In this document: piece after piece, positions 60,001-64,000 of the stretch
Numbering within the stretch: position 1 is the first letter of the stretch
How the letters are laid out: each line of letters opens with the position of its first letter
Assembly: GCA_964252035.1 (NCBI GenBank)
Contig: OZ176211.1
Origin: Podarcis erhardii
Taxonomy: Eukaryota
Direction: 5' to 3' (one strand)
Length of the DNA stretch: 64,000 nt
Made by a program: the position numbers

Positions 60001-63000
60001 CTTACACTATCACGTGTTTGTTCTGTTGTGTCGTTTCCCCCTTGTTACACACTCCTGAGCAGTGTGAAGTTTCAGCAATCCCAGCACTAACCTTGGGGTT
60101 GGTTCTCTTGGAATGAAGATAAATGAGACTGGTAGTATTTTTATGACATAATGTTTATTTACACACATACACAGGCTGAGCACATTAGCTTTCTAGGAGA
60201 ACCACCCCTCCCATGCCCTAGCATTGGATTTTTATGCAGAGCAAGTCAGGTCTCTGTGCCCTTTCAAGACAGCCTGGCTGACCCATTGATCACATCACAT
60301 CCAGACAAGGGAAGGATAAAGAAACCCTATCCAGAAAGGTCTCTGTCCATTTGCTTCTGCAGCAACAAATCATTTGCACAAGATCAACTCTTTACTTATG
60401 CAAAGGCCCATTTTCACAACAAAACAGAGTATATCAGGCTAAGCTTCTTCACTTAGCTTGACTTGCTTAAACATCCCTCGTTCTGTGAAACTGAACCTCA
60501 CAGCTCTATAACAACAGTATTGGAGAGGATCCCCAAAATCCCATTCCGTCTAATCCCAATTTCTCTGTCGCTTTTGTATACTTGAAAAGAACAATACATG
60601 CATTGATGTTTTCCCCACCCAAATATGAATAGTCTGAATCTGAATAGTAAAAAAGCATTTAAATGTTATAAAGGGCAAATATTCTTATTGGGACAATGCA
60701 TGGTGGAAAAGATCCCTGCTGTTGTGCTTCAATCTTTGAAACACTGGGACTTGTGAGTTAATTTTATGGTTGCTGTTGCTGTAACTTTTATAGTTCCATT
60801 TCGGTTTGTAATTATGTTCACCTTTTTTGGCAGGGAGTGCTGAAGAGAATAAAATTATGTATTCAAATACGCACCACCAGTGGTCATTGACTTTTTAAGC
60901 AAGCATTTTAGGTGTTAGCCAAGTGTTCATCCTTACACAGTTATTTAGGCAAAAGAAAGATCAAGCATGCCCTGGCAGATCTTGGAGGACCTGCGACAAG
61001 GGCTTCTGAATGATGCCCAGTCATTTAACAACAGAAAGAATAAAAAAAGGCGGCCACCCTCTCAAAACAAAAATAAAACACGGCTTTGAGATTCCCTGCA
61101 GTACAGCGTGTGCGCGGCGCGTGGTTGGCGGGGAGGGTGGTGGGCGAGACGATTGACGTCTCGGGCAGCCAGTCGAGGAAAGGGACGTTGCCACAGATGC
61201 GTCCCTCCCCTTCGGGAGGGCGGTGCTTTTAGGAGGAACCCCCCGCCGAGGAATGGCGGTGAAGGAGGCGCCTGCCTTTGTTGACGGAAGTCTCCTAGCA
61301 ACAGGAGGCCTCTGGTCCCTCCGGTCTCCATGGCAACCACGCCGCGCTTGTTCTCCGGCGGCGGCGGCGGCGGCGGCACCTGCGAGGGTCGCAGAGGAAG
61401 AATCCGGAAGCGGCTCGGCTCGGTCGGTCGGGGAACGAAGGGCGGCGAAGGAGCCTCGGGCTTGGTGCCCCCGCCTTGTTTCTGGTCCAGGTCGCCTGAC
61501 TGCTGTCCCCGAGGGGCCTCCGCGGATCCAGCTCAGCCCGGGATAAGGAGAACCGGGACTGCGTGGCCACAGATACTTGTGTGTGTGCATTTATATAGCC
61601 GTTCCTCATCTTCCTGAAGGTATCCAAGCGGGGGCCTGGCCAGCACCCCCTTTTCCTCAGCCAGTGACGGGTGGGTGGGTGGGTGGATGCTTAGGGAGCA
61701 CCCGTCTCGCAACTGGGCTCTTGCACCCATCATCATCCCCTGTCCTTTTAGCTAAACCAGAAAACCATAGCCATGAAATTGCCAGCAACTGCATCGTGCT
61801 ATGAAGCAACAGGTGTAGAGAACGAAATTCTAGGTTACTGCTAGTGATTTTGTTGTTACTAGTCCTCTCTCTTGCCTTGCTCATTATGGTTTTATATATA
61901 TCTTTACTAAGCTTCTTTTCTGAATGCTGATCCTTGACTGTCCTAAAGAGATTGGCTGGTATTTAGAACAGTGGTCGTCTTCAGCCTTTTCAGACCCAGG
62001 AGAGAGCTTTTGCCCCAACACAACATGTGTTTGGGGATCCACTTCTTAATTACACTTAATTTGCTATTTATTCTGGAGGGGTGGTGTGCTTGTTATGAGC
62101 CAGCCTTCGGCCAGTTGTGACCCAGCAGTAGTTCCTGAACCACTAGTTGAAGATTAATTTTTTGGATAATTTGGAGAAGGAACCCCCTACAAATGGTTGT
62201 TGTTGGTTTTTTTTGTGGTGGTGACTTGAATTTTGCCCACTTTGGTTATCAGTTCCCAAGTCCATGGTTGATTGTACTTTGCTATAACAAATGCTGGGTT
62301 TTCTTACCTTTTAAAAAAAGCTTTAGAATGGGAAGACCCACGTTCAGTTCCCAGCTCAACCTGAAGTTCAGTAACTTGGGTTGCCATATTTCAAAAAGTA
62401 AAATTCCCGACACCCGCAAAGTTGCTCCCCCCAAAATAGGGGAGGTTTTGGAGCTGTTTCCACTGCTTTTTCCATTGCATTGCCATACATCCAGGGCTTC
62501 CCCTGACATTTTGCCGATTTGGCAATGTTCCCGCCTGACGCCATTTTTACAGCCGAAAGCTGGGACATGTCAGGAATTTTCCTGACATATGGCAAGTCTA
62601 TCACTGCTTTTGTGTGATAATGACATCCTGTGCATTAGGTGCAAAAAAAAGCAGACCTGTGTGTTTAAAAACTGCGGAGAAGAGCGCAGGGCAAAATCCC
62701 CGGGGCAGCAGAGAGAGAGCAGGCACGATGGAGATGTACAGCAAGGCAGAGACGCTGGAGCTGCGGAAGAAGCACATCGGGCCCTCGTGCAAGGTCTTCT
62801 TTGCTAAGGACCCCATTAAGATTGTGTGTGCCCATGGGCAGTACATGTTTGATGAGAATGGAGAAAAATACTTGGACTGCATTAACAACGTAGCACATGT
62901 TGGACACAGCCATCCAGATGTGGTCAAGGCTGCGGTGAAACAGATGGAGTTACTCAACACCAATTCTCTCTTCCTGCACGACACTCTGGTCCAGTATGCC

Positions 63001-64000
63001 AAGTGTCTCACTGCGACCCTCCCAGAGCCTCTCTCTGTTTGCTACTTTGTGAACTCTGGATCTGAAGCAAATGATCTCGCTTTGCGCCTGGCCCGCCAAT
63101 ACAGGGGCCACCTTGACCATGCTTATCACGGCCATGTTACATCGCTAATTGACACTTGACCATGCTTATCACGGCCATGTTACATCGCTAATTGACATCA
63201 GTCCATATAAGTTTAATCACCTGGGGAAAGAGGCCAAAAAGGAATTTGTACATGTGGCTCCTTCACCAGATATATACAGAGGAAAATATAGAGAGGACCA
63301 TTCAGACCCAGGAAGCGCTTATGCCGATGATGTGAAGAAGATAATTGAAGAGGCTCAGAAGAACGGCCGCAAGATTGCAGCCTTTATTGCTGAGTCCATG
63401 CAGAGTTGCGGAGGCCAAGTAATTCCACCTGCAGGCTATTTCCAGAAAGTGGCAGACACTGTCCACAAAGTGGGTGGAGTTTTCATAGCCGATGAAGTCC
63501 AGGTCGGTTTTGGTCGAGTTGGAAAAAAATTCTGGGGATTCCAGCTACAAGGCAAAGACTTTGTGCCTGACATTGTCACTATGGGGAAGCCAGTTGGCAA
63601 TGGCCATCCCATGTCTTGTGTAGTTACCACCAGAGAGAGCGCGGAAGCTTTTGGTGCCTCTGGCTGGAGTACTTCAATACGTTTGGGGGCAACCCAGTGT
63701 CCTGTGCAATTGGACTGGCTGTTTTGGACGTGATAGAAAAAGAAGATCTCCAAGGGAATGCCACACGTGTTGGAAACTATCTCACTGGACTACTGAAGGA
63801 ACAAAAAGAAAAGCATCCACTGGTGGGAGATGTCAGAGGTGTTGGTTTGTTTGTTGGAGTGGATCTTGTGAAGGATCGACAAAAGAGAACGCCTGCCACT
63901 GCTGAGGCCCAGCATATTATCTACAAGCTGAAAGAACAGAGGATTCTTCTTAGTGCTGATGGACCTTATCGAAACATCTTGAAATTTAAGCCACCCATGT

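What the first reader, a model, noticed from the sequence alone, without database searches (positions are those of the whole stretch)
62672..64000. ETNPPL retrocopy inserted ~1 kb behind the RFX promoter, in the same orientation
Seen: an intronless ETNPPL with ~55 nt of GC-rich 5' UTR-like leader, starting right after a TT/AAAAA site (62665-62671). A weak acceptor (cattag|G, 62637-38) lies upstream. Established: ETNPPL is multi-exon and not syntenic with MPP7 in human; TT/AAAA is the L1 endonuclease target. Inference: an L1-made retrocopy landed in the presumed first intron of ODAD2, where it can be transcribed from a cilia/testis promoter. It could form chimeric transcripts, act as a gene trap if it brought its poly(A) signal, or make a 143-aa truncated peptide (62728-63159). 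A lineage-specific insertion here could affect a motile-cilia gene.
Basis: partly seen in the sequence, partly recalled or inferred. Interest (0 to 1): 0.66.

Follow-up and report, generated by a model that had tools for sequence, protein, structure and literature searches.

The report
Dead ETNPPL retrocopy in a lizard
This is an intronless, already broken copy of the enzyme gene ETNPPL that was pasted back into a lizard genome downstream of MPP7, an ordinary processed pseudogene with no sign that it still makes a working protein.

Summary
From ATG 62728 to the window end, the + strand carries one uninterrupted ETNPPL-like coding sequence. It matches residues 1-415 of the 499-residue solved enzyme 6tor (E 1e-59 to 1e-92) and Pfam Aminotran_3. 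It runs without a break through at least six positions where isoforms in other vertebrates drop whole blocks, which I take to be exon junctions.

It is broken three ways:
- five conserved residues (129-133) are absent;
- a perfect 43-nt tandem duplication (63112-63197) shifts the frame and creates the TGA that ends the 143-aa ORF;
- one base is missing in codon 304.

It groups with an unnamed intact 501-aa ETNPPL (96.6% identity) inside squamates. The upstream gene is MPP7, 99% identical to lacertid lizards, so the window is not human.

Poly(A) tail and target-site duplication lie beyond the window. TTAAAA is too common to count as evidence. No ODAD2 exon is visible.

Verdict: a young processed pseudogene. 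"L1-made", "in ODAD2 intron 1" and any effect on cilia stay unproven. Low interest.

The parts
62665..62671 (+). TTAAAAA, candidate endonuclease target and start of a 5' target-site duplication (unverified)
   Evidence: TTAAAA occurs 99 times on the + strand, about once per 646 nt, so this is weak on its own.
62673..62727 (+). 55-nt GC-rich leader before the ATG, putative remnant of the parental 5' UTR. The true 5' edge of the insert lies somewhere in 62596-62727.
   Evidence: GC 0.655 against 0.377 in 62596-62672. The inverted-repeat element ending at 62595 sets the upstream limit. No parental mRNA was available for comparison.
62728..63111 (+). Piece A: codons 1-128 of ETNPPL, starting at the ATG
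   Evidence: It runs through the inferred exon junctions 18|19 (62782), 89|90 (62995) and 111|112 (63061) with no insertion.
63112..63197 (+). Perfect 43-nt tandem duplication (63112-63154 and 63155-63197). It starts exactly where residues 129-133 of the relatives are absent and shifts the frame by +1.
   Evidence: TRF period 43, 2.0 copies, 100% matches, score 172. Both copies translate alike. None of the 113 relatives lacks only 129-133.
63157..63159 (+). Premature TGA created at the junction of the two repeat copies; it ends the 143-codon ORF 62728-63159
63155..63664 (+). Piece B: codons 134-303, in the +1 frame relative to piece A. It holds the conserved TMGKP(V)GNGHP segment.
   Evidence: It runs through the inferred junction 136|137 (63164) with no insertion.
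63665..63666 (+). Broken codon 304: one base missing, second frameshift
   Evidence: Codon-by-codon comparison with P0001. tblastn changes frame here.
63667..63999 (+). Piece C: codons 305-415. The copy runs off the window, so about 86 codons, the 3' UTR, any poly(A) tail and the 3' target-site copy are not in view.
   Evidence: It runs through the inferred junctions 361|362 (63838) and 391|392 (63928) with no insertion.
61001..61500 (.). CpG-island-like stretch (GC 0.63, CpG observed/expected 0.97) with the X-box-like motif GTCTCCATGGCAAC at 61324-61337; presumed promoter of the next gene
   Evidence: Orientation and owner gene are not shown.
4900..38006 (+). Upstream neighbour MPP7, same strand: exon-bearing ORFs with L27, PDZ, SH3 and four guanylate-kinase pieces
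   Evidence: Pfam ORF by ORF. The SH3 ORF 13222-13479 is 99% identical to MPP7 of Podarcis, Zootoca and Lacerta.

Best explanation
This is a processed pseudogene. A spliced ETNPPL mRNA of a squamate lizard was reverse-transcribed and inserted about 24.7 kb downstream of the last MPP7 exon seen here (ends 38006) and about 1.3 kb downstream of an X-box-bearing CpG island, in the same orientation as MPP7. The MPP7 exon is closest to lacertids.

Since insertion the copy has drifted without protein-level constraint. It lacks five conserved codons, gained a 43-nt tandem duplication that shifts the frame and creates a stop after codon 143, lost one base in codon 304, and took amino-acid changes at sites that are nearly invariant across vertebrates. 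It cannot make the PLP-dependent lyase.

Shown: intronless ETNPPL coding sequence, the lesions, squamate origin, the MPP7 neighbour.

Inferred: the retrotransposition mechanism (a LINE reverse transcriptase acting on the poly(A) tail, L1 being the usual suspect), young age (roughly 1% divergence at replacement sites), and residence in the first intron or 5' region of the next gene, ODAD2 by the synteny I recall.
For: 1. Identity. Three frame pieces match 6tor_A ETNPPL at E 5.8e-74, 2.6e-92 and 1.6e-59, covering chain residues 3-415 collinearly. Aminotran_3 is above its cut-off in all three.

2. No introns. Among 113 relatives, seven isoforms lack block 362-391 (including one from the snake Candoia aspera). 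Seven lack block 112-136. Single rows lack 19-111, 90-111, 67-87 or 69-89. The window copy is continuous across every one of these block edges.

3. Lesions. The 43-nt perfect duplication, the 5-residue absence and the missing base in codon 304.

4. Origin. It is 395/409 identical to the unnamed intact 501-aa P0001; the next best is 382/409. The clade RETRO+P0001 has support 100/97 inside a squamate clade with support 100/97.

5. Relaxed constraint. The copy's end branch is 0.042 against 0.015 for P0001. Copy-unique changes number 8-11 against 2-4 for P0001, depending on which of six outgroups is used. Examples: R81L where 75/76 relatives have R; N86T, 71/76; I295S, 72/76; I280V, where no relative has V.

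6. Unrelated locus. The MPP7 domains appear in order on the + strand. There is no other ETNPPL-like piece in the window.

7. Background. Retrocopies dominate lepidosaur pseudogenes and 90.6% are species-specific (preprint 10.64898/2026.06.26.734816, passages seen). Anolis holds about 32,872 L1 elements (PMC3880073, passage seen).
Against: - The two hallmarks that prove retrotransposition, a 3' poly(A) tail and flanking target-site duplications, are outside the window.
- The exon junctions are inferred from missing blocks in predicted isoforms, not read from a gene model of this species.
- P0001 carries no source, so I cannot say it is the parent in the same genome. It has 2-4 changes of its own. 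That is more than I would expect from a constrained parent over so short a time, so it may be an orthologue from a related species.
- The relative-rate excess is significant with only 2 of 6 outgroups (p 0.022 and 0.039; the others 0.146-0.388).
- A perfectly identical 43-nt duplication could be an assembly or polishing error. If so, one of the lesions would vanish.
- No reverse-transcriptase ORF was found in the window (356 + strand ORFs of at least 40 aa; 148 - strand ORFs of at least 60 aa), so nothing local points to a particular LINE family.
Confidence: 0.85

Rival explanations
1. Expressed, co-opted retrocopy. It is transcribed from the X-box CpG-island promoter as part of, or fused to, the ODAD2 pre-mRNA. 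It then acts as a gene trap, a chimeric non-coding RNA, or the source of a 143-aa N-terminal ETNPPL fragment in ciliated or testis cells.
For: - Sense orientation about 1.3 kb downstream of a CpG-island-like stretch with an X-box-like motif.
- Armc4 (ODAD2) is down-regulated in Rfx2 knockout mouse testis (PMC4745085 and PMC4498915, passages seen).
- An ATG with a 143-codon ORF is retained.
Against: - No expression data.
- No ODAD2 exon identified in the window.
- The motif is not significant window-wide: 33 of 100 shuffles gave at least one match.
- No AATAAA or ATTAAA in 62601-64000.
- No predicted protein of 78-251 aa in the 5.8-billion-protein set resembles the 143-aa ORF better than 88% over 78% of it, so no annotation pipeline called it.
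- The 143-aa product lacks most of the fold.
- The replacement changes at invariant sites argue against selection on the protein.
Confidence: 0.07
2. Assembly artefact. Either cDNA or transcript sequence was mis-joined into the contig, or a real intact retrogene has apparent lesions that are sequencing or polishing errors.
For: The 43-nt duplication is 100% identical, as a collapse or expansion error could be. The window ends inside the copy, so its 3' join is unseen.
Against: - The 5' side runs smoothly into unique genomic sequence with an inverted-repeat element and the CpG island.
- There are three independent lesions of different kinds, plus 8-11 copy-unique amino-acid changes. That is the pattern of decay, not of contamination by a present-day transcript.
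Confidence: 0.04
3. An intronless copy made by a route other than LINE-1: another LINE clade present in squamates (CR1, L2, RTE), an LTR-element reverse transcriptase, or DNA-level duplication followed by intron loss.
For: Lizard genomes carry L2, CR1 and LTR elements beside L1 (PMC3880073, passage seen). Nothing in the window ties the insert to L1 in particular.
Against: Simultaneous loss of at least six introns is not expected from DNA duplication. That poly(A)-dependent trans-mobilisation of mRNAs is best established for L1 is my own recollection, backed only by the general statement in the preprint passage.
Confidence: 0.04

Closest known systems
Processed pseudogenes (retrocopies) of vertebrate protein-coding genes
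   Same: Intronless copy of a multi-exon gene at an unrelated locus, beginning with a short 5' UTR-like leader, carrying frameshifts and a premature stop, and young and lineage-specific, as 90.6% of lepidosaur retrocopies are reported to be.
   Different: The poly(A) tail and target-site duplication could not be seen. No paper found names an ETNPPL retrocopy. In the search, which asked for any two of the five terms, none of the 15 papers listed held ETNPPL. In the search for ETNPPL plus pseudogene, 29 papers held both terms; judging by the titles and abstract openings of the 10 listed, those appear to be expression, association or atlas studies.
ETNPPL / AGXT2L1, ethanolamine-phosphate phospho-lyase (class-III aminotransferase fold, PDB 6tor)
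   Same: Collinear match to residues 1-415. 96.6% identity to an intact squamate-type ETNPPL. Aminotran_3 domain.
   Different: Not an intact gene: residues 129-133 are absent, there are two frameshifts and a stop after codon 143, and there are replacements at near-invariant sites.
Retrocopies that borrow a neighbouring CpG-island promoter or sit in host-gene introns (Carelli et al., Genome Res 2016, PMC4772013; search listing and abstract opening only)
   Same: Sense orientation close downstream of a CpG island.
   Different: No evidence of transcription here, and the copy is already disabled.

Membership tests
Processed pseudogene / retrocopy | No introns where the parent gene has them | tested here: met
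   The copy is continuous across inferred junctions 18|19, 89|90, 111|112, 136|137, 361|362 and 391|392. The junctions are inferred from isoform block gaps in 113 relatives, not from a gene model of this species.
Processed pseudogene / retrocopy | 3' poly(A) tract after the parental polyadenylation site | not testable with these tools
   The copy runs off the window at codon 415 of about 501.
Processed pseudogene / retrocopy | Flanking target-site duplications | not testable with these tools
   Only the 5' flank is in view. The candidate start is the A-run at 62667.
Processed pseudogene / retrocopy | A multi-exon parent elsewhere in the same genome | tested here: inconclusive
   An intact 501-aa relative, P0001, at 96.6% identity exists on a 78-Mb contig. 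Its source is not given and I did not look for it. No other ETNPPL piece is in the window.
Processed pseudogene / retrocopy | Disabling lesions (for the 'pseudogene' label) | tested here: met
   The 43-nt duplication with TGA at 63157-63159, the 1-nt deletion in codon 304, and the absence of 5 conserved codons.
ETNPPL (functional enzyme gene) | Aminotran_3 domain and best match to ETNPPL orthologues | tested here: met
ETNPPL (functional enzyme gene) | One open frame from ATG through the PLP-lysine segment to the C-terminus | tested here: not met
   Stop after codon 143. The TMGKP segment lies in another frame, and there is a second frameshift at codon 304. That TMGKP is the PLP-lysine motif is recalled, not from a call.
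L1-mediated insertion | TT|AAAA-like target at the junction, with the target-site duplication starting in the A-run | tested here: inconclusive
   The motif is present at 62665-62671, but TTAAAA occurs 99 times on the + strand and 190 times on both strands, against 120.8 expected.
Resident of ODAD2 intron 1 | ODAD2 exons on both sides, or at least exon 1 upstream | tested here: inconclusive
   No ORF with an armadillo or any other Pfam family above its cut-off in 43.6-62.6 kb on the + strand (116 ORFs). The first exon may be non-coding, and later exons would lie beyond the window. The MPP7-ODAD2 gene order is recalled from human.
RFX (X-box) promoter | X-box consensus in a proximal promoter | tested here: inconclusive
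   GTCTCCATGGCAAC at 61324-61337 fits GTHNYYATRRNAAC (consensus recalled). It is the single match in the window, with expectation 0.51, and 33 of 100 shuffles gave at least one. Its position inside the only unique-sequence CpG island is suggestive. Binding was not tested.

The most novel reading that the evidence does not exclude
The disabled ETNPPL copy has been captured by the cilia/testis X-box promoter next to it. It is spliced or read through as a lineage-specific 5' exon or premature terminator of ODAD2. In this lizard lineage it would then tune the dose of an outer-dynein-arm docking protein, or yield a testis-specific non-coding RNA or a 143-aa ETNPPL N-terminal fragment.
Probability: 0.05. 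Interest if true: 0.45.

Novelty: new member of a known kind. Interest (0 to 1): 0.1.

Why it matters
Mostly for annotation. The locus should be labelled an ETNPPL processed pseudogene, not a second ETNPPL gene or a 143-aa protein.

It could serve as a presence/absence marker among related lizards.

It sits close to a probable cilia-gene promoter, so a cheap RNA-seq check could show whether it disturbs that gene.

It opens no long-standing question.

Tried and rejected
- ODAD2 in the window. The Pfam scan of 116 + strand ORFs (43.6-62.6 kb) gave nothing above a cut-off. The ORFs over the CpG island gave nothing either.
- MPP7 identity through solved structures. The L27 ORF 9903-10256 found no PDB chain at E <= 0.001. 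Identity was settled by the SH3 ORF instead.
- Other copies of 61.6-64 kb in the window. blastn returned only the self-match and did not even report the 43-nt tandem copy. The first run printed nothing because of my filter.
- Known RNA families in 58-64 kb. None at E <= 0.1.
- LINE or reverse-transcriptase ORFs. None in 356 + strand ORFs of at least 40 aa or in 148 - strand ORFs of at least 60 aa. The 264 - strand ORFs of 40-59 aa were not scanned.
- A predicted protein from this locus or from a sister retrocopy. The near-length search with the 143-aa ORF gave 282 hits among 686 candidates. The best by E-value was 81% identical and the best by identity 88% over 78% coverage; none was squamate-like.
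- Whether the 15-nt absence is an alternative splice form. None of 113 relatives lacks only residues 129-133. The duplication begins 3 codons before the inferred 136|137 junction, so it does not follow exon edges.
- Weak below-cut-off Pfam hits (DUF4131, DUF6925, DUF3915) were treated as noise.
- dN/dS, exact 5' boundary and age.
Each was re-sent in a valid form.
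Full report
**What is there.**
- The last 1.3 kb of the window carries, on the + strand, a sequence that translates into ETNPPL (ethanolamine-phosphate phospho-lyase) once three reading frames are followed.
- I searched the pieces separately by reference. 62728-63156 matches PDB 6tor_A residues 3-148 (E 5.8e-74). 63149-63733 matches residues 133-307 (E 2.6e-92). 63571-63999 matches residues 298-415 (E 1.6e-59).
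- Each piece scores above the Pfam Aminotran_3 gathering cut-off, and the pieces match successive, collinear parts of the profile.
- No other ETNPPL-like piece is in the window (tblastn with P0001).

**The lesions.** Codon-by-codon comparison with the closest relative gives this anatomy:
- Codons 1-128 occupy 62728-63111.
- The five residues that follow in all relatives (129-133) are absent (gap). None of 113 relatives lacks only these.
- At exactly that point begins a perfect 43-nt tandem duplication, 63112-63154 and 63155-63197 (TRF score 172, 100% match).
- Codons 134-303 continue from the second repeat copy to 63664.
- Codon 304 has lost one base (63665-63666).
- Codons 305-415 run from 63667 to the window end.

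The segment with the conserved TMGKP motif (identified as the PLP-lysine motif from memory) therefore lies after a stop and in another frame. The copy cannot encode the enzyme.

**Is it intronless relative to a spliced parent?**
- No vertebrate genome was available, so I inferred exon blocks from predicted isoforms among the hits.
- In an alignment of 113 of the 120 listed relatives (seven unnamed short-contig rows left out), seven rows lack exactly residues 362-391. One of them is isoform X2 of the snake Candoia aspera.
- Seven rows lack 112-136. Single rows lack 19-111, 90-111, 67-87 or 69-89.
- The window copy is continuous across every one of these block edges, at 62782, 62995, 63061, 63164, 63838 and 63928.
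- This is indirect evidence, but it is consistent at six or more junctions.

**Where it comes from.**
- With piece B as query and longer proteins allowed, 4185 proteins scored E <= 1e-40 among 6196 candidates. The best was an unnamed intact 501-aa protein, P0001, at 96%. Then came turtles and a cordylid lizard at about 92%, snakes at 87-90%, birds at 85-86% and mammals at about 80%.
- Over all 409 comparable codons the copy is 395/409 identical to P0001 and 382/409 to the next best.
- I built a maximum-likelihood tree of the copy plus 24 relatives chosen to span tetrapods; 96 of the 120 listed rows were not used. It pairs the copy with P0001 (support 100/97) inside a squamate clade (support 100/97).
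- The SH3-bearing ORF of the upstream gene is 99% identical to MPP7 of Podarcis, Zootoca and Lacerta.
- I therefore take the window to be from a lizard, closest to lacertids, and not human.
- I did not try to find out what P0001 or the other unnamed rows come from.

**Constraint and age.**
- Of the 14 differences from P0001, nine put a rare or unseen residue in the copy. For eight of them the relatives mostly keep the P0001 residue: R81L (R in 75 of 76 full-length relatives), N86T (71/76), I295S (72/76), I280V (57/76; V in none), A239V, E267K, R93C and Q155H. At the ninth, A235T, neither residue occurs in any relative.
- The other five are at variable sites. At four of them the copy has the commoner residue; at R36H neither residue is common.
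- With six different outgroups, copy-unique changes number 8-11 against 2-4 for P0001. The excess is significant with only two of them (p 0.022 and 0.039; the others 0.146-0.388).
- The copy's end branch is 0.042 against 0.015.
- Taking about 930 replacement sites, 8-11 changes suggest roughly 1% neutral divergence, so a young insertion. This is an inference, not a measurement.
- The 100% identity of the two 43-nt repeat units fits a still more recent slippage event, or an assembly error.

**Context.**
- Pfam scans, ORF by ORF, show MPP7 on the + strand between about 4.9 and 38.0 kb. The domains are L27 (9903-10256; a weak one at 4900-5088), PDZ (12419-12589, weak), SH3 (13222-13479) and four guanylate-kinase pieces (33002-33238, 35286-35471, 35934-36182, 37830-38006).
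- Between 43.6 and 62.6 kb, none of 116 + strand ORFs matched a family above its cut-off. None of 148 - strand ORFs of at least 60 aa matched anything.
- So ODAD2 is not visible in this window. Its presence downstream rests on the human MPP7-ODAD2 order, which I recall rather than tested.
- The CpG-island-like stretch 61001-61500 holds the only window match to the X-box consensus, at 61324-61337. However, 33 of 100 shuffles of the window give at least one match.
- Armc4 (ODAD2) is down-regulated in Rfx2 knockout mouse testis (PMC4745085 and PMC4498915, passages seen). An X-box promoter for it is therefore plausible.

**Mechanism.**
- The retrotransposition route is inferred. The poly(A) tail and the 3' target-site copy lie beyond position 64000.
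- TTAAAA occurs 190 times on both strands (120.8 expected) and 99 times on the + strand, about one per 646 nt. One such site within about 60 nt upstream of the ATG has roughly a one-in-ten chance.
- The 5' edge of the insert can only be bracketed. It lies between 62596 and 62727, because an element with about 30-nt inverted ends (62381-62412 and 62568-62595) lies just upstream.
- Lizard genomes hold many L1 elements beside L2 and CR1 (PMC3880073, passage seen).
- Retrocopies dominate lepidosaur pseudogenes. 90.6% are species-specific and 22.5% retain an ORF (preprint 10.64898/2026.06.26.734816, passages seen).
- The finding fits the common case.

**Novelty and verdict.**
- I found no paper naming an ETNPPL retrocopy. 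The search asked for any two of ETNPPL, AGXT2L1 and three retro-terms, and none of the 15 papers listed held ETNPPL. In the search for ETNPPL plus pseudogene, 29 papers held both terms; judging by the titles and abstract openings of the 10 listed, those appear to be expression, association or atlas studies. Supplements were closed.
- No short predicted protein resembling the 143-aa ORF exists in the protein collection.
- This is a new instance of a well-known kind: a young, disabled processed pseudogene.
- The L1 attribution, the ODAD2-intron placement and the functional consequences remain untested.
- The coding potential is refuted for the enzyme and unlikely for the fragment.

Noticed in passing
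window 33637-34126: The other 'CpG island' of the window (33501-34000, GC 0.69) is a GC-rich minisatellite: a 119-nt unit, 4.1 copies, 83% matches, with internally palindromic units. It lies in the MPP7 intron between two guanylate-kinase exons. It is probably not a promoter.
   Followed up: partly
window 62381-62595: A roughly 215-nt element bounded by imperfect inverted ends of about 30 nt (62381-62412 and 62568-62595), MITE-like, just upstream of the retrocopy. No second copy was found in the window.
   Followed up: partly
window 61290-61302: A second X-box-like half-palindrome (GTCTCC T AGCAAC), seen by eye 22 nt upstream of the consensus match at 61324-61337. Not tested against shuffles.
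   Followed up: no
window 19319-19448: A run of 130 N inside the MPP7 gene region.
   Followed up: no
window 27191-27235 and 47983-48034: Perfect microsatellites: (TTA)15 and (AG)26.
   Followed up: no
window 13222-13479 (hit P0241): The top-scoring hit for the MPP7 SH3 ORF is a Podarcis muralis protein named 'MAGUK p55 subfamily member 3'. It is only 70% identical but has a much higher score (199 bits against 144 for the MPP7 hits). It may match the intronic read-through part of the ORF too, or be a mis-named model.
   Followed up: no
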